IMG/VR virus record: IMGVR_UViG_3300030444_000128 | DNA length: 19,646 nt | Origin: a virus | Taxonomy: Duplodnaviria; Heunggongvirae; Uroviricota; Caudoviricetes | Strand: one strand, 5' to 3' | Shown here: positions 1-11,508 of the stretch, in pieces | Layout of the letters: each line of letters starts with the position of its first letter | Position numbering within the stretch: position 1 is the first letter of the stretch | Translations under genes and position numbers: made by a program | The notes under the pieces: generated by a model | What the model was told of the DNA's origin: nothing | Databases searched by the model: none | The model's input: the letters and a program-made list of their open reading frames with translations, nothing else

Positions 1-89
1 TAGCGCTGATGTCCGGCAGTGCTTTTGCCGTTACGCACCACCCCGTCAGTAGCTGAACAGGAGGGACAGCTGATAGAAACAGAAGCCAC
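1..89 (-). CDS. insA: IS1 InsA, N-terminal part (partial, runs off window start)
   Basis: Minus-strand reading from the GTG at 89-87 gives (M)[28 protein letters not shown], the known InsA N-terminus with its CxxC zinc-finger motif. Shorter than the ORF-track cutoff so not listed there. Confidence 0.7.
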
Positions 90-144
90 TGGAGCACCTC
101 AAAAACACCATCATACACTAAATCAGTAAGTTGGCAGCATCACC
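1..144 (-). mobile_element. IS1 left end (partial; element continues beyond window start)
   Basis: Reverse complement of 122-144 is GGTGATGCTGCCAACTTACTGAT, which I recognise as the IS1 terminal inverted repeat. Positions 1-144 read as the first ~144 nt of IS1 in reverse orientation, including the InsA N-terminus. From memory, not searched. Confidence 0.85.
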
Positions 145-363
145 TATCACGGCATGCGAATTGAGCTTAAAGAACCAAATGGTAAAGCCCCGACGAAAGA
201 GCAGATCGCCTGGATGCGCAGGCTTAGAGAGGAAGGTTACTACGTCGTTCTTGCGTATGGTGCAGAACAAGCGATAACCGCCATCCTGGAATACATAAGC
301 CTTAAAAAGGGTGAGGCTATTGAGCATGTATTGAACGGCGACAAGTGGTTGTATGCTGCTTAA
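145..363 (+). pseudogene. VRR-NUC domain nuclease gene, 3' portion only, interrupted by IS1
   Basis: ORF 154-363 encodes IELKEP...PTKEQIAWMRRLREEGYYVVLAYGAEQAITAILEY, resembling the C-terminal half of a VRR-NUC (PD-(D/E)xK) domain with the ExK motif but not the upstream PD motif. The reading frame runs back into IS1 and hits a stop at 127-129. No convincing SD precedes ATG 154. Confidence 0.45.
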
Positions 364-429
364 AATAATAAATTAATTAGTGCATATGTGCTCTTTGATA
401 TAGCGCACATTAACATCGGGAGAATAATC

Positions 430-585
430 GTGTCATTCAAGGCTAATTATGAATCGCTGGCATCGATCATGCCGCGTAATGAACAGGAAGCAGATGCTGT
501 AGTGGACCCGGTAATCGCTGAAATGAATGCTCGCCTGGAGGCTGAATTTGCAGCTGAGAATGAACATACCACCCAGGGCGACTAG
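430..585 (+). CDS. small hypothetical protein (~51 aa from GTG 430)
   Basis: ORF 388-585. The GTG at 430 is preceded by GGGAGA (417-422) at good spacing. No recognisable domain. The start is uncertain (GTG 388 is the alternative). Confidence 0.3.
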   Translation: MSFKANYESLASIMPRNEQEADAVVDPVIAEMNARLEAEFAAENEHTTQGD

Positions 586-1189
586 GACTGTTTTTTGTGT
601 CGGTAGCGGTCCGTCACTCACTCGTGAGGACTGTGCTGCTATAGAAAAAACTGGCTGTTCAATCATCGCGGTTAACAATTCCTGGCAGATGTTCGATGAC
701 ATTTATGCCTTATACGCCGGTGATTTGTCATGGTGGAAGCAATACGGATCCACCATACCGGGAGGGAGATTCCGCAAAGTGACAGCCAACCTGGCGGCGG
801 CGAAATCATTTTCGTTGGAGTACAGGCGATATTGTGGACCGGCGGAAGGGGTAAATAGCGGCGCGCAGGCTATCAGTCTGGCTGCTGAATCAGGGGCTGA
901 AGTAGTGGTATTAGTCGGCTATGACTGTTCTCTGCAAAACGGCCTTCATTGGCATGGCGCGCACCCTCAAGCCCTACGGAATCCAACGCAGGTGTCTATT
1001 TCAAAATGGCAACAGCAGTTCCTGGATACCCGCAAAAAACACGCAGATTTACATATTTTGAATGCAAGTAGGAGCAGTGCAATTCAATGTTTCCCAAGAA
1101 TAAATTTAGAGGCAGTGATCGCGTTATTATCGTCGGCAGTGGCCCAAGCGCCGCAAACTTTGTTGCGCCGCGCGGAGTGCCGATTATAG
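560..1189 (+). CDS. GT42/DUF115-like Rossmann protein (putative glycosyltransferase-like), paralog 1
   Basis: ORF 527-1189. N-terminal FCVGSGPSL...IIAVNN, then VVVLVGYDCS and LHWHG, resemble the GNGPSL / GID / catalytic-His layout of Cst-II-type (GT42) and DUF115/Maf proteins. Start placed at ATG 560, which puts the GSGPS motif at residues 14-19 as in paralog 2; the ATG at 527 overlaps the upstream ORF. Confidence 0.5.
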   Translation: MNIPPRATRTVFCVGSGPSLTREDCAAIEKTGCSIIAVNNSWQMFDDIYALYAGDLSWWKQYGSTIPGGRFRKVTANLAAAKSFSLEYRRYCGPAEGVNSGAQAISLAAESGAEVVVLVGYDCSLQNGLHWHGAHPQALRNPTQVSISKWQQQFLDTRKKHADLHILNASRSSAIQCFPRINLEAVIALLSSAVAQAPQTLLRRAECRL

Positions 1190-1713
1190 CGGTCAATGGG
1201 GCCATCGACTGGCTTAACCGCGCTTCTTATTTTTTCACCCTTGATCCATCGCCAGACAATATGCGGCGCGTTGGTCGTGGCCGCCGTCGCCGTGGTGTTT
1301 GTTATTGCATGGCACTACCCGATGTTAAAGAACGTGAAGTCAGAGATGGCGTTCTGTGCTTCCGTCGTGTGGCTGAGCGCGGCACGGAGCCAAAAAATAC
1401 GAATTCTCCCGAGTGGTGGGCGTGGCGCTGGTCCGCACATTTCGGCCTTTGCGAAGATGAGAATGAAATTGCCAGCGGCAATAGTGCATATGGTGCTCTG
1501 AACCTGGCTTTCCATATCGGATTCAAACATGTCGCCCTGGTGGGCGTTGACGCTACACAAGAACCACGCGTTCACTCCGGCGGCACGCCAAAAAATCTAA
1601 GTCACCTGCCTTTGTTATTCCAGTCTGCGCGTGAACAGATTGACGTTGTTTCATGCGGGAAAATGGGAGGTATTCCGCAGATGACTCTTAAAGAATGGCT
1701 GAAGAATACATGA
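1087..1713 (+). CDS. GT42/DUF115-like Rossmann protein (putative glycosyltransferase-like), paralog 2
   Basis: ORF 1087-1713. IIVGSGPSA...IIAVNG, then VALVGVDAT and RVHSGG, parallel the motifs of the upstream gene (tandem paralogs). AGGAG at 1070-1074. Overlaps the 3' end of the upstream gene by about 100 nt in another frame. Confidence 0.55.
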
Positions 1714-2387
1714 TGGCACCCACAATTTATCACCGTATCGACGGTACCAAATACAGGAATGTCTGGGTTGTTGGTGATCTGCATGGTTGCTACACCAGAC
1801 TGATGTCCGAACTCCATCGTGTGGATTTTGACCCGGCGCAGGATTTACTGATATCGTTCGGCGACCTTATCGATCGCGGTACTGAAAATGTCGAATGTCT
1901 GGAACTATTGCAGATGCCCTGGTTCAGGGCAGTGATGGGGAACCATGAGCGGCTGATGATTGATGCGTTAAGTCCAGATGGCAACGTGAATAACTGGCTA
2001 ATGAATGGCGGACAATGGTTCTTCATGCTGGACACTGATCAGGAAATATTAGCCTGGGCGCTGGTGGAGCTGGTAAAGCGTCTGCCCTATATCATTGAGT
2101 TGAACACCGGGCAAGAAACTATCGTTATAGCCCATGCCGACTATCCGGATAATGAATACCAATTCGGTAAGGAGGTGCCGCTTTTCAACGTTGTCTGGGC
2201 GCGCGAGCGTATCAGTGATTCGATGGATGATATTGGTGGCGAAATTTCGGGCGCAGATCGTTTTATCTTTGGTCACACTCCGGTGAAAAGCCCGAAGACA
2301 TTCTGGAATCAGCATTATATCGACACAGGTGCCGTATTTTGCGGAAACCTGACATTGATGAAAGTGAAAGGTGATGGTGCAGCATGA
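1695..2387 (+). CDS. Ser/Thr protein phosphatase, lambda-PPase-like (calcineurin-like metallophosphoesterase)
   Basis: Motifs in order: GDLHG, GDLIDRG, GNHE, then ...GHTP...IDTGAVF. Strongly resembles phage lambda phosphatase / E. coli PrpA along its whole length. Start could be ATG 1695, 1710 or 1713. Confidence 0.85.
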
Positions 2388-3085
2388 AGATTGCTTTAGT
2401 TCTTCGCTCTGGTGGTGACTATAACGCTTCCGATGTGCAGTGGCTGGTTAATCAACTGCCAAAAGGCTATGAAATTATTTGCCTGACAGACCTGAAGCGT
2501 TTACATGTACCTGGCGTCAAAGTTGTCCCATTGATCAACCAGTGGCAAAAGTGCCGTGGCTGGTGGGCGAAAATCGAGTTGTTCCGACCGGATATAACCG
2601 ATGATCTGTTCTATCTGGATTTGGACACGGTTATTGCCGGTGATATACGCCCAATCCTAGAGAATCCACCAACCAGCTTCACCATGCTTAGGGATTTTTA
2701 CCATCCACAATATCGTGGCAGCGGTGCCCTGTGGATACCAAATAGTGTAAAAGTGCATATCTGGAGTGCATTCTGGCAAGATCCGGAAGGTTGGATTGCT
2801 CGTTGTGTTACTACTGAATGCTGGGGTGAGCAGGGGTTTTTGCGGAAGGTTATGGGTGATGATACACCAGTATTTCAGGATCTGTATCCGGGATGGTTTG
2901 TAAGTTACAAGGCCGATGTTGTGGAACCTGGTTCGAAATATGCGAGCGCGCGTTACTCCAGGGGGAATGGGGCATTACCAAAAGACTGCCGAATAATCTT
3001 TTTCCACGGCAAACCGCGACCTCGCGAAGTGTCAGAGGATTGGCTTCCCCTTATCAGCTCATTTTTTGAGCGAGAATCAGAATAA
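2384..3085 (+). CDS. hypothetical protein, possible nucleotide-sugar (DXD-type) glycosyltransferase
   Basis: ORF 2384-3085, start overlapping the phosphatase stop (ATGA). Contains YLDLDTVI (DXD-like) after a beta-alpha-beta-like N-terminus. Family assignment is weak. Confidence 0.45.
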
Positions 3086-3086
3086 T

Positions 3087-3103
3087 ATTGCTCTAATAAT
3101 TCC
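3087..3103 (+). promoter_or_regulatory. C1-repressor operator-like site
   Basis: ATTGCTCTAATAATTCC versus the P1 C1 operator consensus ATTGCTCTAATAAATTT as I remember it (14/17). Lies immediately after the stop at 3083-3085. Confidence 0.6.
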
Positions 3104-3111
3104 ATATTTTT

Positions 3112-3141
3112 AAAACGTGATGTACACTCATCACGTTTTTT
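3112..3141. terminator. bidirectional rho-independent terminator
   Basis: AAAACGTGATG-TACACT-CATCACGTTTT: perfect 11-bp stem with an A-tract before and a T-tract after, so a hairpin plus U-run forms on either strand. Confidence 0.65.
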
Positions 3142-3152
3142 ATTAGAGCAAT
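3136..3152 (-). promoter_or_regulatory. C1-repressor operator-like site (inverted relative to 3087-3103)
   Basis: Minus strand reads ATTGCTCTAATAAAAAA (14/17 to consensus). Together with 3087-3103 it forms an inverted operator pair around the terminator, directly upstream of the 3167 operon. Confidence 0.55.
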
Positions 3153-3166
3153 CTATAAGGTGCACT

Positions 3167-3385
3167 ATGTGGCCATTCCGACGGAAATATCACTACTGGC
3201 TGATCGCCTTTGTTACGCTGACCGGCGGTATCAGGCATGTCATCACCAGGTATCGCAACAAGAGACTCACCTTAGCCAGAATTTTACAGGCTGCCATAGG
3301 TGAGGGACTGGATACAAATTGCGTAGTCCTTCCACCTTCATACTTAGGAAAAATGACCGAAGCACAAGCTAATACGGAACTTTGA
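3167..3385 (+). CDS. small hypothetical protein, probable single-pass membrane protein
   Basis: ORF 3167-3385 (72 aa). AAGGTG at 3157-3162, 4 nt before the ATG. Hydrophobic stretch YWLIAFVTLTGGI. Stop at 3383-3385 lies 1 nt before the next ATG (coupling). Confidence 0.4.
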   Translation: MWPFRRKYHYWLIAFVTLTGGIRHVITRYRNKRLTLARILQAAIGEGLDTNCVVLPPSYLGKMTEAQANTEL

Positions 3386-3386
3386 A

Positions 3387-4649
3387 ATGAGCACTTCAGC
3401 ACAAAACCAATCAATCGAAAATGTATCTATCCCTGATGTCCTGAATGCCGGTATCCCGGCCATTATCCAGAACATCCGGGCCGCGCAACGCCGCGTTAGT
3501 TGTGATGACCTCACAGCACGTTTTTTTGATAATGCGGTTCAGTCAGCGGAGATGCTTCACGCACAGCTTATTGATGTTTATAACGCAGAAGCTGATAGCC
3601 ATAACTCCCTGGTAGATGCAGCTGAAAATATGCAGTTGGATCTCGGTCTGAAGGGTAAAGAAATTGAAGAGCTTCAGCTGCAAATTGAACATTTGAAACG
3701 CCAGCAACAGGACGCGATCGACGATGCGACGCATGACGCCAACCAGCGTGCTGATAATGCCGAACGTATAAGCATTGAGCTGGAAACAAAACTCAATGAA
3801 ATGACCGCGATGGTTGAACTGCGGAACTCACAGATTTCAACGCTAAAATCTCAATATAAAGAGATCATGAAACTTGATCCTTTTAACCTTGAGAAACGCT
3901 ATAACAAAGCTAAAAGCGAGCGACAGGAACTGCGTAAGCAGGTCGCTGACCTTAACCAACAGCTCAAAAAAACTATTAAAGATGCAAGCGAAGCGCGCGT
4001 GGCATTTGCTAATAAAAAAGCAGAGGTTACCGCGCTGGTTAATGAGAATGCCAAATTTGCGACGCTCAAGAAGGAAATGTATGGCATTACTGAGCGCCGT
4101 TTCCCTGCAAGCAAACTTCATCCGACGTTAGGGCAAATCTCCTTCTTCCCGCGCCTCCTGGCTTATGGGATCTCATCGCCTAAAGAGTTCAATAACGAGC
4201 GTCCTTATATCGTTTCTAAGCTGGACTTTGCTTATCAGTTCTGCTGCGACATGGGCTATGCCATTGATATCCGAATCAACGAATGGTTGATGCCAAACTT
4301 CCAGCCGTTGGCAATTTTCCGCGAGTTCCAGCCGGAAGGTTGGGTAGAGTTCTTCCATGAATTGATCTGTAAAGAGATGGAAAGCCGCCGCCCGGAATTG
4401 GTCCGTCGAGTTGAGTGGGCGCAAGAGGTTATGTTGGCAGATGCAGAGCTGCCGTTCGAACCGGAATTCATTGATGATCTGGCAACTAAAGGGCTGCATA
4501 CCCTGTTTGATGTGGTTACCCGCCGTCATGAGCAGTTGGTTGTCGAATTGGGTTTAGAGGAAACTGCGGCAAGAAGACTTCTCGATGTTTGCTATGCACG
4601 TAGCGATGCATGGGAAAAAGAGAACGGCGGCACTATTTACGTTCGCTGA
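3387..4649 (+). CDS. hypothetical coiled-coil protein (420 aa)
   Basis: Long ORF with a heptad-like, charged Q/E/K-rich segment at roughly residues 90-220 and a globular C-terminal half. No family recognised. Followed by a strong terminator. Confidence 0.7.
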   Translation: MSTSAQNQSIENVSIPDVLNAGIPAIIQNIRAAQRRVSCDDLTARFFDNAVQSAEMLHAQLIDVYNAEADSHNSLVDAAENMQLDLGLKGKEIEELQLQIEHLKRQQQDAIDDATHDANQRADNAERISIELETKLNEMTAMVELRNSQISTLKSQYKEIMKLDPFNLEKRYNKAKSERQELRKQVADLNQQLKKTIKDASEARVAFANKKAEVTALVNENAKFATLKKEMYGITERRFPASKLHPTLGQISFFPRLLAYGISSPKEFNNERPYIVSKLDFAYQFCCDMGYAIDIRINEWLMPNFQPLAIFREFQPEGWVEFFHELICKEMESRRPELVRRVEWAQEVMLADAELPFEPEFIDDLATKGLHTLFDVVTRRHEQLVVELGLEETAARRLLDVCYARSDAWEKENGGTIYVR

Positions 4650-5493: not shown

Positions 5494-8400
5494 CTATATT
5501 TTTCCGCCTACGCCTTTAAACTTCTCAATAAACGAGACGATTTTCTGGAAAACTGCCTGTTTTTTCGTTTTATATTGCGGATTCAACGGACTAAGTTTTG
5601 GTAATGTTTCGTTTAATTCTGTGCCATTTTCGGTGGCGTATTCGCGTTTTAAAGACGTGCGAATATAGCGTTTTGCTGCATCTTCATTGAGATTTTCTTC
5701 TTTTATCAATGCTTCTGCTTCACGTTGCTGTTCGCGTTGAGCAAACGTAAAGAATGCCTCAATGATACTGGCTTTGTCTGGTAAATCATCCAGGTTCGTT
5801 TGCTGAATAAAATCGACCACCAGGCCCTCTTTCGCCCGGTTCCCCAGGCTTGAACGAATTAAGCGTTTGACCTCTTCGATCATTTCGCCCTTGCCTTTAT
5901 TTTGTCTGTTGTGTTCGAAAATCAGTCCAAGGATATAATCCAGGTTTATTTCCTGAGACTTCAGCAAATCGACCTCAAAAACCACGTCATCCCAGTCAGT
6001 GGTTGATTTCTCTTTTTTCTCAGCTTCTTTCTCACGGCGCTGCCAGTCGCGAATATCGTTATAGGCAGAACGATAATCCTGAATCTTGCGATCAGCAGGG
6101 AGACGAATTGTTTGCAATTCAGCGAACTTTTCATCATCCACATAATGTTCTGCTTTGAATTTTTCTACCGCAACAGGATCGCTAAGATCGATTTGTTGCA
6201 GGGCTTTTAGCGTGGCAAATTCATCATAGTTTTGCAGGATGTTCTCGGCACGCAGGTATTCGCCAAACAGTTTAACGAAGTCTTTCTTCTCTTTTTCACT
6301 TTCAATACTGGCAGGGTCAGGGAACCGTTGTTCCAGTTCTGAAACTACTGCCATAAAGCCGCGTTTGGCTTCACCGGTGGCAGCATCAGTAAAACCTTCC
6401 ATATACTCTGCATAACTCTTTTCTAACACCACATTTTTGGTATTTTTATCACCAAACAGCGTTATGGCATCAATGGTTGAGCGTTCCAGATCCCGAAAAG
6501 TGACAATGTTACCGAAGGTTTTAGTGGCGTTATAAATGCGGTTGGTGCGGGAAAATGCCTGCATCAGGCCGTGAAAACGCAAGTTTTTATCGACGAATAG
6601 CGTGTTCAATGTTGGAGCGTCGAAGCCGGTTAAAAACATCCCAACGACAATTAACAGATCGATATCCTGATTTTTAACCCGTTGGGCTAAATCGCGATAG
6701 TAGTTCTGAAAACCGTTACCGTCGGTGCTGAAGTTAGTTTTAAAATAGCTGTTATACTCACGAATTGCAGCGTCAAGAAACTCTTTAGCACTGCTGTCCA
6801 TTGCGCTGGTATCAAAAGTTTCATCGGAAATTTCACCAATGGCATTTTGTTCTTCATTAGCGGCAAAGGAGAAGATTGTCGCAACACGCAGCGGTTTATA
6901 AGTTGCAGATTTATTAGCGGCTTCCTCTTGTAACCGTTTAAACGCCGCGTAATAGGCTTTTGCAGCATCCACGCTGCTCACTGCCAACATAGCATTAAAA
7001 CCTTTTGCGCCAGGGAAAGTACGGTGCGTCTTCTGGCGGAAGTTATTCAGAATATATTGCGTAATTTCCTGTATACGCATGGGATGAAGAAACGCCTGCT
7101 GATTTTCAGCCGCACTTAGTTTTTTCTCGTCAGTTTCTGTCTCTAAAGACTTAAACTGTGGCCGCACATCGTTGTAGTCCACCTTGAATTTGAGCACTTT
7201 TTCATCACGAATCGCATCGGTAATTACATACGAATGCAATTCACGACCAAATACGCTGGCGGTCGTTTCTGAGCCTAAGGCGTTTTCCGGGAAAATAGGT
7301 GTGCCGGTAAAACCAAACTGATAATAGCGTTTGAATTTCTTCTTCAGGTTTTTCTGCGCTTCTCCAAACTGGCTGCGGTGGCATTCATCAAATATAAACA
7401 CCACTTGCTGATTATATACAGGCAGGTCGCTTTCTGCTTTCATCAGGTTATTGAGTTTCTGAATAGTAGTGACGATAATTTTGTTATCGTCCTTATCCAG
7501 ATTTCGTTTAAGGCCTGCGGTATTTTCCGAGCCGTTGACGCTGTCTGGCGAAAAACGCTGATATTCCTTCATGGTCTGGTAATCGAGGTCTTTCCTGTCG
7601 ACCACAAAGAAGACTTTATCAATAAAGTCCAGCTCTGTTGCCAGACGCGCGGCTTTAAAGCTGGTGAGGGTTTTACCAGAACCGGTAGTGTGCCAGATAT
7701 ACCCACCGCTTTCCGGTTTTGACCAGTTCTTCGCTGTAAAGGAACTCTTAATTTTCCACAGAATGCGCTCGGTGGCGGCAATCTGGTACGGTCGCATCAC
7801 CAGTAGCGTCTGACTACTGTCAAAAACGCTGTAGTTCACCAGAACATTCAGCAGAGTATGTTTCTGGAAAAAGGTAGCGGTAAAGTCTTTGAGGTCTTTA
7901 ATCAGCGTGTTGTCTGATTTCGCCCAATTCATGGTGAAGTCAAAACTGTTTTTATCGCGCTTTGTCGTGTTGGCAAAATAACGGGTATCGGTGCCGTTAG
8001 AAATGACAAACAGTTGCAGATACTTAAACAGGGAATTTTCGCTGTTAAAACTCTCTTTACTGTAACGATGTATCTGGTTGAAAGCCTCACGAATCGCCAC
8101 CCCGCGTTTTTTTAGTTCGATTTGCACCAGCGGTAAACCATTAACCAGGATCGTGACGTCATAACGGTTAGCATGAGAACCCGTCTGTTCAAACTGCTGG
8201 ATAATCTGCACCTTATTGCGCATGAGATTCTTTTTATCTATCAAATAGATGTTCTCAAGTCGCCCGTCATCAAAAATAAAGTCGCAGATATAGTCGATAT
8301 GGATTTTACGGGTTTTATCCAGAATACCATCGCTGGGGTTGTCCAGATACTGCTCCGTGAAGCGCCGCCACTCGCTGTCATTAAACATCACACCATTGAG

Positions 8401-8610
8401 GCTCTGAAGCTGTTCCCGAACATTGGACAGCATTGCCGACTGTGATTTTACGGAAATAAATTCATAACCCTGATTTTGCAGGTCCTGAATCAGTTCACGT
8501 TCCAGGTCCGATTCGCTCTGGTAGCTGTCGCCTGTTGGCTCAGCTTTGATGTACTTATCAAGAACGATAAAGTTATTGGATTCAGCAATGGTGTGTGTCT
8601 GATGAGTCAT
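5494..8610 (-). CDS. hsdR: type I restriction enzyme R subunit (HsdR), EcoR124-like (type IC)
   Basis: 1038-aa ORF with helicase motifs ([12 protein letters not shown] Walker A; [14 protein letters not shown]-box-like) and the type I HsdR architecture. Length and N-terminus match my memory of EcoR124 HsdR. Lies downstream of hsdM-hsdS on the same strand. Confidence 0.93.
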
Positions 8611-8731
8611 AGCGCATCCTTTGTGCCGTCTGGCAAGGGCCGGAAGGGGGGTAATGGTGACTTCCGGCGCGTAAAAAATAGTCTATATACTGACCGGGTG
8701 TTAAGGTGGTCCGATCGGTAGCAATGATCAA

Positions 8732-9949
8732 TTAATTACTGGCAGTTTCAGGTTTCGGGAAACTGAACAGTAAATCACGGTAGTATTCGTATTGTTTCTG
8801 GCGCAACTCGATTTCACGCGGGAGACCTTCGGTGATAGAGTTGGTCAGGGTGTCGAATTTATCGAGTATTTCGACAATGCGAGCTTGTTCCTTAAGTGAT
8901 TTTTCGTGATCTTTAGGATATGGAACCGGAATCATAATTTTTGAAAAACCATTAATGAGTAGTGTATTAACTTTTGTTCTGGCTACATACTTTGCTTTTT
9001 CAGAAATAAACGAATCGGTTTGCATGTAATAGGAAATAAATTTTGGATTCAAAGAATGTCGAAAAGCATAACAGTGATCATGAATAGCGATATCGTCATC
9101 CCCAAGCCATGCCACTGCTTTACCAACGTCTTCTACAGTCTCCCCCACGTCAGTTATCACGACATCTCCATGTTTGGCATAGCGTAATGACGCTGCCATA
9201 TCAGCTCTAACCTGTGATAACGAATGAGTTGTGTAAACACCATATCGTGTATATATCTCACCATAATGGATTACACTGATACCACCATCTTCTACATAAT
9301 CTGCTTTAGTAAAACGTTTTCCACGAATAAACTCACCAATTTCCCCCAAAGTCTTCCACTCAACCTCACCATCTTTAAAACTCAACAACTGGTCGCGATA
9401 GTAGTTGTACTGTTTTTTACGCATGTTAAGCTCAGCGGTAAGCTCAGCGGTAAGTGCAGTAAATTTATCCAGAATCCGAACGATTTCAGACTGGATGGCA
9501 AGGGATTTTTCCGGATTATCCGGGCAGGGGATGGGGATAGGGAAATTCTCTAAGGTTGATAGCACGATATATGTCATTGCCGCGCTATTTGTTCTTTCCT
9601 CGAGATATTTCTTCAGGCTATGGCTAAGCACAAAATACAAAAATCTAACACTTACATTTTCGTCGAAATTTGTCAGAACATAGGTGCGCTGATAAGCCTC
9701 AAACTTGCCGATGTAATGCTTCACCTCACCAACATTCGCATTGCCTGCAATCAGCAATGCCTCTGTATCCCAGCGGAATTTATCAATTTTGCTTGTCTCT
9801 TTGGCTGTCGTGAAGAACATATACTCTCCATCATCAACAGCCGCATTCGCATTAAGCTTTCCTGTTTCAATTTTGCAAGTTTGCCCAAGTGTCTTCCACT
9901 CAACCTCAACCCCATCCAGCAATTTTTCCAGATAACTCATCTCGCTCAT
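8732..9949 (-). CDS. hsdS: type I restriction-modification specificity subunit (HsdS), type IC with TAEL x2 central repeat
   Basis: 405-aa ORF with two target-recognition halves (EVEWKTLG occurs twice) and the central conserved region ...[29 protein letters not shown]. Start ATG overlaps the hsdM stop (ATGA). Confidence 0.92.
9429..9452 (-). repeat. 12-bp tandem repeat (2 copies) encoding TAEL-TAEL in the HsdS central spacer
   Basis: Plus strand GCTCAGCGGTAA GCTCAGCGGTAA. On the coding strand this is the LTAELTAEL segment whose copy number is known to set the spacer length of type IC recognition sites. Confidence 0.9.
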
Positions 9950-11508
9950 TTCTGCACCTCGCAGCCTTCAATTTCAGCCACAATTGCATCAATATCTTTA
10001 CGCAACTGGTCGATTTTGCTGACCGTGGTTTTCAGCTCTGCATTCAGCTCACCGATATCGATAATTTCGCGGTTATCTTTCGCTTCCACATAGCTGCTCA
10101 CCGACAGGTTATAGTCATTCGCGACAACAGTCTCAAACGCAACAGATTTCGCCAGATGAGCAACATCTTCCTTGCTGGCAAATACCTGCATAATCTGTTC
10201 GATATGGGCATCGGTCAGGATATTGTTGTTGGTTTCTTTTTTGAACAGTTCGCTGGCATCAATAAACTGAACTTTGGTATCCGTTTTATGTTTAGACAGC
10301 ACCAGAATGTTTACAGCAATAGTGGTGCCAAAGAACAGGTTCGGTGCCAGTGAAATCACGGTTTCGACATAGTTATTATCGACCAGATACTGACGGATTT
10401 TCTGCTCCGCGCCGCCACGGTAAAAAATACCCGGGAAGCAGACAATCGCAGCACGACCTTTGGCCGAAAGATAGTTCAGCGCATGTAGTACAAACGCAAA
10501 GTCAGCTTTGGATTTGGGGGCCAGGACGCCAGCCGGGGCAAAACGTTCATCGTTAATCAGCGTCGGGTCATCGCTGCCAATCCATTTCACCGAATACGGC
10601 GGGTTAGAAACGATGGCATCAAACGGTTTTTCATCTCTGAAGTGTGGCTCAGTCAGTGTATTACCCAGCTTGATATCAAACTTGTCGTAGTTGATGTTGT
10701 GCAAAAACATGTTCATACGTGCCAGGTTATAGGTTGTATGGTTGATTTCCTGACCAAAAAAGCCTTCTTCGATGATATGGTTATCAAACTGCTTTTTAGC
10801 CTGCAACAACAGTGAGCCGGAACCCGCTGCCGGGTCGTAGATTTTGTTAACGTTGGTCTGCCCGTGCATAGCCAGTTGTGCAATCAGCTTGGAGACGTGC
10901 TGCGGTGTAAAGAACTCACCGCCTGACTTACCGGCATTTGCCGCATAGTTAGAAATCAGGAACTCATAGGCATCACCGAACAGGTCAATCTGATGTTCGT
11001 TGAAGTCACCAAGTTTTAACCCTTCAACCCCTTTCAGAACCGCAGCCAGGCGGGCATTTTTATCTTTAACGGTGTTACCCAGGCGGTTACTGGTGGTATC
11101 GAAATCAGCAAACAAACCTTTGATGTCTGCTTCTGAAGGGTAGCCGTAAGCAGAACTTTCGATAGCAACGAAGATGCTGTTTAAATCTGCGTTCAGTCTG
11201 TCATTGGTATTTGCTTTCGCAGCTACGTTGCAGAAAAGCTGACTGGGGTAGATGAAGTAGCCTTTAGTTTTGATGGCATCGTCTTTAATGTCATCAGTAA
11301 TTACGCTGTCATCCAGTTTCGCATAACAGATACTGTCATCACCGGCTTCAATATAACTGGAAAAATTTTCGCTGATAAAACGGTAGAAAAGTGCGCCCAG
11401 AACGTATTGCTTAAAATCCCATCCATCGACCGAACCCCTGACATCGTTAGCAATTTGCCAGATTTGACGATGAAGCTCTGCACGTTGTTGAATACTTGTC
11501 ATTTTCAT
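9946..11508 (-). CDS. hsdM: type I restriction-modification N6-adenine DNA methyltransferase subunit (HsdM)
   Basis: 520-aa ORF with the catalytic NPPY motif ([10 protein letters not shown]) and an AdoMet-binding region ([10 protein letters not shown]). Confidence 0.95.

What the first reader, a model, noticed from the sequence alone, without database searches (positions are those of the whole stretch)
388..3085. Tight operon of two GT42/DUF115-like paralogs, a lambda-type Ser/Thr phosphatase and a DXD glycosyltransferase-like gene
Four overlapping or coupled genes (560-1189, 1087-1713, 1695-2387, 2384-3085) form one transcription unit that ends at a bidirectional terminator. Two are tandem paralogs with a GSGPS...AVN N-terminus and G(Y/V)D plus His motifs reminiscent of Cst-II/Maf-type sugar transferases; a third has a DXD-like motif. 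Pairing sugar-transferase-like proteins with a metallophosphatase in a phage-plasmid suggests a glycosylation module (DNA, virion or host-surface modification), which could matter for restriction evasion or superinfection exclusion. I cannot place these genes in the P1 map from memory.
Basis: partly seen in the sequence, partly recalled or inferred. Interest (0 to 1): 0.6.

Follow-up and report, generated by a model that had tools for sequence, protein, structure and literature searches.

The report
Phage P1 sugar-transferase operon (pmgN–pmgQ)
This is the long-known but functionally uncharacterised pmgN-pmgO-pmgP-ppp-pmgQ operon of phage P1; three of its genes form a sugar-attaching enzyme cassette shared by many phages of Gram-negative bacteria, most likely decorating a protein (perhaps the virus particle), with a lambda-type phosphatase inserted only in the P1 lineage.

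Summary
Window 388-3165 is the C1-repressed pmgN-pmgO-pmgP-ppp-pmgQ operon of a P1-like phage-plasmid, 97-100% identical in protein to P1. It is backbone: at least 541 PLSDB plasmids carry it intact.

- **Ppp** is a lambda phosphatase homolog (E 1e-93).

New here: PmgO, PmgP and PmgQ, without Ppp, form a cassette found across several bacterial phyla. Natural fusions occur (O-P, P-Q, Q-P-methyltransferase). The cassette sits inside head-gene clusters or just after lysis genes in unrelated prophages. In some enterobacterial chromosomes it is interleaved with invasin-type Big_1 adhesins.

Best reading: a cytoplasmic protein O-glycosylation cassette, with virion proteins as the probable target in phages. 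The donors (CMP-Kdo-type and UDP-hexose) are inferred.

Published knockouts show no plaque or antirestriction phenotype. LPS remodelling remains a rival; DNA modification is unlikely. The genes are known; the function is not.

The parts
331..366 (+). Promoter region of the operon. It contains P1's predicted sigma-70 promoter PpmgN (-35 TTGAAC at 331-336, -10 at 352-357) and an alternative promoter-like site at 338-366.
   Evidence: Coordinates transferred from the P1 annotation (window = P1 - 79065). The sequence is nearly identical to P1. The scan found GCGACA-17-TAAAAT at 338-366. Both are predictions only.
370..386 (-). C1 repressor operator Oppp (former Op83). It places the operon under prophage repression.
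   Evidence: P1 annotation. These 17 bases are identical between the window and P1.
430..585 (+). pmgN, a small acidic 51-aa protein of unknown function and the first gene of the operon. A GTG-extended ORF starts at 388.
   Evidence: ORF list, P1 annotation, and PHROG 2350 of unknown function. 47/51 residues are identical to P1.
527..1189 (+). pmgO, a Maf/MptE/GT42-fold transferase and paralog of PmgP. An alternative start at 560 fits homolog lengths better.
1087..1713 (+). pmgP, the second Maf/MptE-fold paralog and the most conserved member of the cassette.
   Evidence: hhalign against the PmgO profile: 97.7%, E 2.4e-12. 328 word-indexed homologs at more than 50% identity reach Pseudomonas, Ochrobactrum and Alloalcanivorax. 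A full profile search finds 601 clusters at 50% identity. Natural fusions to PmgO, PmgQ and methyltransferases exist.
1695..2387 (+). ppp, a lambda-PPase-type metallophosphatase. It is an insertion into the cassette specific to the P1 lineage.
   Evidence: Pfam Metallophos 57 bits against a cut-off of 21.5. Full-length match to lambda phosphatase 1G5B, E 1.3e-93. Absent from all non-P1 cassettes. Present without the glycosyltransferase genes in phage D6.
2384..3085 (+). pmgQ, a GT8/GT77-like retaining GT-A glycosyltransferase with a DLD motif at residues 79-81. This allele has E149 where the family has a near-invariant Asp.
3087..3152 (.). End of the operon. The inverted C1 operators OpmgRa (3087-3103) and OpmgRb (3136-3152) bracket a terminator-like hairpin (3112-3139), and the predicted promoter PpmgR (3088-3116) overlaps the element.
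   Evidence: P1 annotation, sequence, and fold at -26.9 kcal/mol with z -6.1. Identical to P1 over 3083-3155.

Best explanation
The region is the C1-repressed pmgN-pmgO-pmgP-ppp-pmgQ operon of a P1-type phage-plasmid.

Shown:
- PmgO and PmgP are paralogous enzymes of the Maf/MptE/GT42 fold.
- PmgQ is a GT8/GT77-like retaining GT-A glycosyltransferase.
- The three genes travel together as a cassette across phages and bacteria of several phyla, and occur as natural fusions with one another and with methyltransferases.
- Ppp is a lambda-type phosphatase found in the cassette only in the P1 lineage.

Inferred:
- The cassette builds a short O-linked glycan on a protein in the cytoplasm.
- PmgO and PmgP act as a pair, possibly a heteromer. 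They transfer a CMP-activated ulosonic acid; in E. coli K-12 this would be Kdo, because P1 encodes no nonulosonic-acid synthesis genes.
- PmgQ adds an alpha-linked hexose from a UDP-sugar.
- In phages the acceptor is most likely a virion protein made at the same time. In a few enterobacterial chromosomes it is probably a set of invasin-type Big_1 adhesins.
- The modification is dispensable for plaque formation in the laboratory.
- Ppp is probably a functionally independent passenger in the same transcript.
For: - **Identity with the P1 operon and its regulation:**
- **Paralogy:**
- **PmgQ fold and motif:**
- **Cassette conservation:** all 15 PmgP-containing genome loci not cut by a contig end also carry PmgQ, and 14 of the 19 PmgP loci carry PmgO. 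They span Gamma-, Alpha- and Betaproteobacteria, Bacteroidota and Gemmatimonadota. Ppp appears only in the P1-like loci.
- **Fusions:** O-P (P0051), P-Q (P0298, P0364), Q-P (P0382), Q-P-methyltransferase (P0349) and methyltransferase-P (P0384).
- **Extra glycan-tailoring genes in cassettes:** a second GT-A enzyme, SAM or FkbM methyltransferases, and a GT-B enzyme.
- **Position in head-gene clusters:** the cassette lies tightly packed between the major capsid gene and the head-completion genes in Pseudomonas, Ochrobactrum and Zhongshania prophages.
- **Position after lysis genes:** it lies between the lysis genes and the terminase gene in C. rodentium phiNP and an Alloalcanivorax prophage, and directly after the lysis genes in a podovirus-like contig.
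- **Chromosomal islands:** O, P and Q are interleaved with an inverse-autotransporter invasin and four more Big_1 proteins.
- **Precedent for the chemistry:** Maf enzymes expressed in E. coli put Kdo on Ser/Thr using the host's donor (bioRxiv 10.1101/2020.06.03.131540).
- **Soluble, non-structural proteins:** no hydrophobic segment is present, and PmgO, PmgP, PmgQ and Ppp are not named anywhere in the P1 virion proteome paper.
Against: - No glycan on P1 virions has been reported. Two recent P1 cryo-EM papers do not mention one.
- Knockouts and CRISPRi show no phenotype.
- In P1 the operon is driven by a C1-controlled sigma-70 promoter rather than a late promoter.
- PmgO and PmgP score below Pfam's cut-off for MptE-like. 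The same fold includes pyrophosphokinases, so glycosyltransferase chemistry is inferred, not shown.
- The donor sugars and the acceptor are entirely inferred.
- The position after lysis genes is also the classical site for lysogenic-conversion morons.
- Known homologs occur only in diderm bacteria. This fits an LPS target as well as a Kdo donor.
Confidence: 0.45

Rival explanations
1. The cassette remodels LPS or another envelope glycolipid. PmgO and PmgP would act like WaaZ-type Kdo transferases on the inner core. PmgQ would act like the GT8 outer-core transferases (WaaO/WaaJ/LgtC). The result would mask the core-glucose receptor of P1, giving superinfection exclusion or protecting progeny from adsorbing to debris.
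For: - There are faint hits to WaaZ_KDO_III on the fusion protein and on PmgP.
- All homologs found are in diderm bacteria or their phages.
- P1 adsorbs to LPS core glucose (established knowledge, not tested here).
- In several lambdoid prophages the cassette sits in the moron position after the lysis genes.
Against: - Similarity to WaaZ is not significant: TIGR04437 scores 11.8 bits against a cut-off of 200, and hhalign probabilities are 17% and 7%.
- In P1 the operon is repressed in the lysogen, so it cannot give lysogenic conversion.
- In three prophages it is packed within the head-gene cluster, between the major capsid gene and the head-completion genes.
- LPS made late in infection cannot replace the existing outer-membrane receptors.
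- The chromosomal copies are linked to adhesin genes, not to waa or O-antigen clusters.
Confidence: 0.2
2. PmgO and PmgP are not glycosyltransferases but MptE/thiamin-pyrophosphokinase-like pyrophosphokinases. They would activate a small molecule or a sugar, which PmgQ then uses or modifies.
For: - The only Pfam family hit is MptE-like.
Against: - The conserved GPS / N / NSG / G-x-D motif series lines up with the CMP-binding motifs of Cst-II (and reading).
- No pterin, folate or thiamin genes are nearby.
- Fusions and synteny involve glycosyltransferases and methyltransferases.
Confidence: 0.1
3. The cassette glycosylates a host protein rather than a virion protein. Candidates are a surface receptor, flagellin, a pilin or a defence protein. 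The effect would be host takeover, counter-defence or exclusion of other phages. Ppp might cooperate by removing phosphate from the same Ser/Thr sites.
For: - The chromosomal islands link the cassette to surface adhesins.
- Maf's natural substrates are bacterial surface proteins.
- P1 expresses the operon from an early, C1-controlled promoter together with a protein phosphatase.
Against: - Embedding in head operons without regulatory space.
- Ppp is absent from every non-P1 cassette.
- No phenotype was seen in the standard hosts tested.
Confidence: 0.15
4. The cassette glycosylates phage DNA to evade restriction. This was one of the first reader's options.
For: Phage-encoded glycosyltransferases that modify DNA are a known class (general knowledge). 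Nothing found here points specifically to DNA.
Against: - The pmg/upf knockouts did not change antirestriction.
- No hydroxymethyl-base or other hypermodification genes accompany the cassette in any locus.
- The cassette sits in structural or late modules, not in replication modules.
- P1 DNA is routinely cut by ordinary restriction enzymes (general knowledge).
Confidence: 0.04

Closest known systems
Phage P1 / P7 operon pmgN-pmgO-pmgP-ppp-pmgQ (P7: hdmB-hdmC-ppp-hdmD), Lobocka et al. 2004 annotation
   Same: It is the same locus. Gene order, C1 operators and promoter are the same, and proteins are 97-100% identical. RefSeq already labels PmgO 'alpha-2,3-sialyltransferase', PmgQ 'glycosyltransferase' and Ppp 'metallophosphoesterase'.
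   Different: In this window an IS1 end truncates the upstream gene pmgM. There are a few substitutions, including D149E in PmgQ. No experimental function has been published. The genes are classed as non-essential with unknown function.
Maf (motility-associated factor) flagellin nonulosonic-acid O-glycosyltransferases, e.g. Magnetospirillum Maf 5MU5
   Different: Maf proteins are about 600 aa with extra N- and C-terminal domains, whereas PmgO and PmgP are about 200-aa single domains present as a paralogous pair. There is no linkage to flagellin or to CMP-Pse/Leg synthesis genes. Sequence similarity is only at the motif level.
GT42 sialyltransferases Cst-I / Cst-II of Campylobacter
   Different: There is no significant sequence match (E 0.13-0.9). 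The acceptor in GT42 is lipooligosaccharide. The region after G-x-D differs: PmgO has CS...HWHGxH and PmgP has LSHLP.
GT8/GT77 retaining glycosyltransferases: glycogenin, AgtA (Skp1 glycan), GlyE (PsrP adhesin glycan), LgtC
   Different: PmgQ is shorter (233 aa), matches no Pfam family and belongs to no curated GT family tested here. Donor and acceptor are unknown.
Virion glycosylation by phage-encoded glycosyltransferases in mycobacteriophages, and PBCV-1 A64R capsid glycosylation
   Different: The enzyme families differ, with no Maf-like pair in those systems. The hosts here are diderm. No glycan has yet been demonstrated on P1 or any cassette-bearing phage.
Adhesin-dedicated cytoplasmic glycosyltransferases (Aah/TibC for AIDA-I/TibA; GtfA/B-GlyE for serine-rich repeat adhesins)
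   Same: The chromosomal version of the cassette is interleaved with an inverse-autotransporter invasin and other Big_1 proteins. This parallels adhesin-plus-glycosyltransferase loci. The parallel rests on general knowledge of those systems.
   Different: The enzyme folds differ: Aah and TibC are GT-B-like heptosyltransferases. Glycosylation of the Big_1 proteins is untested.
Lambda protein phosphatase (NinI, PDB 1G5B)
   Same: Ppp aligns end to end with it (E 1.3e-93) and has all the metallophosphoesterase motifs.
   Different: Ppp is embedded by translational coupling between two glycosyltransferase genes under C1 control, instead of lying in a nin region. The D6 copy does lie among nin-like genes.

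Membership tests
P1 C1-controlled ppp operon | Gene order pmgN-pmgO-pmgP-ppp-pmgQ, with operator Oppp upstream and operators OpmgRa/b downstream | tested here: met
   Megablast gives 98.4% identity to P1 over 145-4000. Annotation transferred. Operators are identical to P1.
Pfam PF01973 MptE-like (former DUF115) | Score at or above the gathering threshold (34.6 bits) | tested here: inconclusive
Maf flagellin glycosyltransferases | Central GT domain fold | tested here: met
Maf flagellin glycosyltransferases | Three-domain architecture of about 600 aa, with linkage to flagellin and CMP-nonulosonic-acid synthesis genes | tested here: not met
   PmgO is 209-220 aa and PmgP is 208 aa. No flagellin or neu/pse/leg genes were found in the window or in any related locus examined.
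Maf flagellin glycosyltransferases | Transfer of a CMP-activated ulosonic acid to Ser/Thr of a protein | not testable with these tools
   Requires enzyme assays or glycoproteomics.
CAZy GT42 (Cst-I/Cst-II) | Significant sequence similarity to family members | tested here: not met
WaaZ KdoIII transferase (TIGR04437 / PF27901, GT73) | Model score above the cut-off, or a confident profile match to E. coli WaaZ | tested here: not met
   TIGR04437 scores 11.8 bits against a cut-off of 200. hhalign probabilities are 16.8% for PmgP and 7.4% for PmgO. Only a 'faint' precomputed hit exists on the fusion protein.
MptE 6-hydroxymethyl-dihydropterin pyrophosphokinase | Fold, plus a pterin/folate pathway context | tested here: inconclusive
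GT8/GT77-like retaining GT-A glycosyltransferases (PmgQ) | GT-A fold with a DxD metal/nucleotide-sugar motif | tested here: met
GT8/GT77-like retaining GT-A glycosyltransferases (PmgQ) | Curated family model hit (Pfam Glyco_transf_8 or equivalent) | tested here: not met
   PmgQ has no hit in Pfam or NCBIfam. Only a profile search against PDB sequences reaches AgtA (E 2.6e-7) and glycogenin (E 1.9e-5).
GT8/GT77-like retaining GT-A glycosyltransferases (PmgQ) | Acidic residue of the G-D-Q-G motif, aligned with the glycogenin GGDQG motif | tested here: inconclusive
   The family has Asp in 60/62 sequences. This window has Glu149, whereas P1 has Asp. The alignment to glycogenin is shown.
PPP-family metallophosphatase, lambda PPase type (Ppp) | Full-length similarity to lambda PPase and a Metallophos domain above the cut-off | tested here: met
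   1G5B at E 1.3e-93, query residues 11-229 against chain residues 3-221. Metallophos scores 57 bits against a cut-off of 21.5. The GDLHG, GDLIDRG, GNHE and GHTP motifs are visible.
Rho-independent (bidirectional) terminator | GC-containing hairpin followed by a T-run on both strands | tested here: inconclusive
   An 11-bp stem at 3112-3139 is flanked by A- and T-runs, with z -6.1 for the composite fold. The consensus scan did not call it and P1 does not annotate it.

The most novel reading that the evidence does not exclude
P1, and many unrelated phages of Gram-negative bacteria, carry a previously unrecognised protein O-glycosylation system. A Maf-like PmgO/PmgP pair would place Kdo, or another CMP-ulosonic acid, on Ser/Thr of virion proteins. 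A GT8-like enzyme, and sometimes methyltransferases, would extend and cap the glycan. This would be the first natural Ser/Thr-O-Kdo glycoprotein and the first virion glycosylation system described for phages of diderm bacteria. The same cassette would have been co-opted by some enterobacteria to glycosylate invasin-type adhesins.
Probability: 0.25. Interest if true: 0.75.

Novelty: new variant of a known kind. Interest (0 to 1): 0.45.

Why it matters
P1 is a classic model and transduction tool, and P1-like phage-plasmids are common in clinical and livestock Enterobacteriaceae. The operon is intact in at least 541 PLSDB plasmids.

If the cassette glycosylates virions, it could affect particle stability, immune recognition and adsorption. 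It could also explain why these genes are kept although they are dispensable in the laboratory.

The cassette is small, soluble and active in E. coli-type cytoplasm. It could therefore become a tool for protein glyco-engineering, as has been proposed for Maf enzymes.

The analysis also separates the phosphatase from the sugar enzymes. This corrects the impression that the four genes form one functional module.

Tried and rejected
1. **WaaZ/KdoIII link.** This was prompted by a faint PF27901 label. I fetched E. coli K-12 WaaZ and compared it with the PmgO and PmgP profiles. The probabilities were 7% and 17%, and TIGR04437 scored 11.8 bits against a cut-off of 200. Rejected as a family assignment.
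2. **First PmgO-versus-PmgP profile comparison.** This was an artefact, because the PmgO alignment contained the O-P fusion protein. It was redone without that sequence.
3. **AlphaFold-database fold search.** The library was not available, so WaaZ and other unsolved relatives could not be compared by structure.
4. **IMG/VR scan with the PmgP profile.** It returned only P1-like contigs and added no diversity. Diversity came from the genome scan and from contig look-ups.
5. **Literature searches.** Searches on the gene names, on 'norphogenetic', and on MptE-like plus phage found no functional study. Two P1 cryo-EM papers have no mention of glycans. A search for Kdo or O-glycosylated phage capsids found nothing relevant.
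6. **Composition.** GC content does not mark ppp as foreign (0.48, against 0.48-0.52 for its neighbours), so this gave no evidence on its origin.
7. **Greedy ORF picking.** It worked poorly in high-GC loci. Only Pfam-checked neighbours are cited.
Full report
**1. What the region is**

Megablast of window 1-4000 finds phage P1, P7, RCS47, SJ46 and relatives at 98-99% identity from position 145 onward. With the offset window = P1 - 79065, the P1 annotation maps as follows:

| Feature | Window coordinates |
|---|---|
| Predicted promoter PpmgN | 331-357 |
| C1 operator Oppp | 370-386 |
| pmgN | 430-585 |
| pmgO | 527-1189 |
| pmgP | 1087-1713 |
| ppp | 1695-2387 |
| pmgQ | 2384-3085 |
| C1 operator OpmgRa | 3087-3103 |
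| Predicted promoter PpmgR | 3088-3116 |
| C1 operator OpmgRb | 3136-3152 |
| pmgR | 3167-3385 |

The ORFs are all present. Protein identity to P1 is 220/220 (PmgO), 206/208 (PmgP), 225/230 (Ppp) and 225/233 (PmgQ). The operators are identical to P1.

They are a named, C1-repressed operon that has been annotated 'putative morphogenetic function' since the P1 genome paper. It is backbone, not cargo: at least 541 PLSDB plasmids, mostly Escherichia and Salmonella, carry at least 80% of 388-3165 at 95% identity or more.

**2. Checking the observation**

- **Gene coupling.** The overlaps are 103 nt (pmgO/pmgP), 19 nt (pmgP/ppp) and 4 nt (ppp/pmgQ).
- **Paralogy.** BLASTP sees only the N-terminal motif (E 0.003). 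After removing a fusion protein that had contaminated the first attempt, profile-profile alignment gives 97.7% probability and E 2.4e-12 over 163 columns. The shared motif series is GSGPS, AVN, (G/L)D, NS(G/A), G(Y/V)D, then His.
- **DXD motif.** PmgQ's D79-L80-D81 is invariant in 62 homologs.
- **Terminator.** The terminator-like hairpin (3112-3139) has an 11-bp stem between an A-run and a T-run. It lies inside the two inverted C1 operators, and the composite folds at -26.9 kcal/mol with z -6.1. The scan tool did not list it and P1 does not annotate it.
- **An inference on read-through.** The predicted -10 of PpmgR ends at 3116. Transcripts starting there would lack the left arm of the hairpin and would read through, whereas operon transcripts would contain the whole hairpin. 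This is not shown.

**3. The proteins**

Foldseek's only convincing hit is again Maf. That fold contains both CMP-sugar transferases and pyrophosphokinases.

*PmgP.* It is the better conserved paralog, at more than 50% identity even in Pseudomonas, Ochrobactrum and Alloalcanivorax. A full profile search of 1.84 billion representatives finds only 601 clusters, so the family is small.

*Ppp.* It is a full-length homolog of lambda phosphatase 1G5B (E 1.3e-93).

None of the proteins has a hydrophobic segment.

**4. Evidence from elsewhere: a three-gene cassette**

- **Co-occurrence.** A genome scan with the PmgP profile gave 24 loci from different species. Local HMM searches found PmgQ next to PmgP in all 15 loci not cut by a contig end, and PmgO in 14 of 19. 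The hosts are Enterobacterales, Zhongshania, Commensalibacter, Methylophilaceae, Brevundimonas, Sinomicrobium (Bacteroidota) and a Longimicrobiales MAG.
- **Ppp is separate.** It occurs only in the three P1-like loci. Phage D6 has ppp among nin-like genes with no cassette. In isolated phages, PmgP homologs occur in the P1 group, Citrobacter phiNP, two 111-116-kb coliphages, and jumbo phages of Xanthomonas and Stenotrophomonas.
- **Natural fusions.** These tie the three proteins to one pathway: O-P (P0051), P-Q (P0298, P0364), Q-P (P0382), Q-P-methyltransferase (P0349) and methyltransferase-P (P0384).
- **Extra tailoring genes.** Cassettes often add a second small GT-A enzyme, a SAM or FkbM methyltransferase, or a GT-B enzyme. 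This is what a glycan-building set looks like, and it argues against a pterin or thiamin kinase role.

**5. Where the cassette sits**

- **Within head-gene clusters.** In HK97-type prophages of Pseudomonas, Ochrobactrum and Zhongshania, it lies between the major capsid gene and the head-completion genes. In two of these there is almost no intergenic space.
- **After the lysis genes.** In C. rodentium phiNP and an Alloalcanivorax prophage, it lies between the lysis genes and the terminase gene. In a podovirus-like contig it follows the lysis genes and precedes oppositely oriented tail genes.
- **Outside phages.** In five Pseudescherichia-like genomes, the three genes are interleaved with an inverse-autotransporter invasin (IAT_beta plus seven Big_1 domains) and four further Big_1 proteins. 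No phage genes are present there. In Serratia plymuthica, PmgO sits beside Big_1 proteins, while PmgQ and PmgP sit between a holin and a lysozyme gene.

**6. Most likely mechanism**

Shown:
- the folds;
- the paralogy;
- the conserved cassette;
- the fusions;
- the positions;
- the independence of Ppp.

Inferred: the cassette O-glycosylates a protein in the cytoplasm.

The Maf relatives do exactly this for flagellin. When expressed in E. coli they can use the host's CMP-Kdo to make Ser/Thr-O-Kdo. P1 carries no ulosonic-acid synthesis genes, and every host found so far is a diderm, so CMP-Kdo is always available. PmgQ would add an alpha-linked hexose from a UDP-sugar.

Co-expression with head genes in three prophages points to virion proteins as acceptors. 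The chromosomal islands point to Big_1 adhesins.

PmgO, PmgP, PmgQ and Ppp are not named anywhere in the P1 virion proteome paper, as expected for enzymes rather than structural proteins.

I put about 0.75 on 'one glycan-building pathway'. I put about 0.45 on the full statement, including a protein acceptor.

**7. Rivals**

- **LPS or envelope remodelling (0.2).** This is attractive because P1 binds core glucose, because GT8 includes LPS core enzymes, and because all hosts are diderm. But the WaaZ link fails every test. The operon is off in the lysogen, and head-operon embedding does not fit.
- **Pyrophosphokinase chemistry (0.1).** It is allowed by the fold but disfavoured by the ranking of matches, the fusions and the synteny.
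- **A host-protein target, possibly with Ppp cooperating (0.15).** This cannot be excluded.
- **DNA glycosylation (0.04).** It is disfavoured by the knockout data and by the genomic context.

**8. What is known and what is new**

The genes and their fold-level labels are already in RefSeq and PHROGs. Deletions and CRISPRi show they are dispensable for plaque formation, and deletions leave antirestriction unchanged. No paper in the searchable library assigns a function.

New here:
- the proof of paralogy;
- the definition of a cross-phylum O-P-Q cassette with fusions;
- the exclusion of Ppp from that cassette;
- the links to capsid-adjacent positions and to adhesin genes.

I rate this a new variant of a known kind (virus- or adhesin-dedicated glycosyltransferase sets), with moderate interest.

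**9. Limits**

- The AFDB fold library was unavailable.
- The pattern-seeded genome scan favours close relatives, so 'diderm only' is a lower-confidence statement.
- Neighbour functions rest on Pfam hits for a limited number of loci.

Noticed in passing
window 1-144: Homology to P1 starts only at base 145, inside pmgM (VRR-NUC). The first 144 bases look like the terminal inverted repeat end of IS1 (ending ...GGCAGCATCACC at 133-144). The only phage record matching from base 1 (phi456) has InsB annotated there. pmgM is therefore truncated by an IS1 insertion about 190 bp upstream of the operon promoter.
   Followed up: partly
window 2828-2830 (PmgQ residue 149): This allele of PmgQ has Glu149. 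P1 and 60 of 62 family members have Asp in the G-D-Q-G motif, which aligns with the GGDQG motif of glycogenin. It is a conservative change at a probable catalytic position, so this copy may have altered or reduced activity.
   Followed up: partly
window 5494-11508, minus strand: A complete type I restriction-modification system sits between pap and the pmgT region: hsdR (1038 aa), hsdS (405 aa) and hsdM (520 aa) ORFs. The annotation comes from matching plasmids. P1 itself carries only remnants that its annotation compares with EcoDXXI/R124 hsd flanks.
   Followed up: no
window 3087-3152: The terminator-like hairpin is nested between two inverted C1 operators and overlaps the predicted promoter PpmgR. 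Transcripts starting at PpmgR would lack the left arm of the hairpin. The same element could therefore stop the upstream operon while letting pmgR-pmgS transcripts through. Untested.
   Followed up: partly
window 430-585 (pmgN): A published CRISPRi knock-down of pmgN lowered P1 plating to 1.4e-2, although the pmgN deletion is viable. Knock-downs of the downstream genes had no effect (PMC10695390). The discrepancy is unexplained. The target lies close to the promoter and operator.
   Followed up: no
window 527-585 and 1087-1189: pmgO overlaps pmgN by 59 nt if it starts at 527; the internal ATG at 560 fits homolog lengths better. pmgO overlaps pmgP by 103 nt. The overlapped C-terminal tail of PmgO, about 30 aa, is not conserved in homologs.
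   Followed up: partly
L116 2236-18532 (Pseudescherichia MAG), also L091-L095 and L005: This is a chromosomal island with no phage genes. PmgO, PmgP and PmgQ homologs are interleaved with an inverse-autotransporter invasin (1169 aa, IAT_beta plus Big_1 repeats) and four other Big_1 proteins, one of which has RCC1 repeats. It is a possible dedicated adhesin-glycosylation locus.
   Followed up: partly
proteins P0051, P0298, P0349, P0364, P0382, P0384: These are natural fusion proteins joining PmgO-PmgP, PmgP-PmgQ, PmgQ-PmgP, PmgQ-PmgP-methyltransferase and methyltransferase-PmgP.
   Followed up: yes
L114 (phage D6) 3447-4139: D6 carries a ppp gene 90% identical in DNA to the window's. It lies among lambdoid nin-like small genes and has no glycosyltransferase genes nearby. 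This points to mosaic exchange of ppp alone between P1-like and lambdoid phages.
   Followed up: partly
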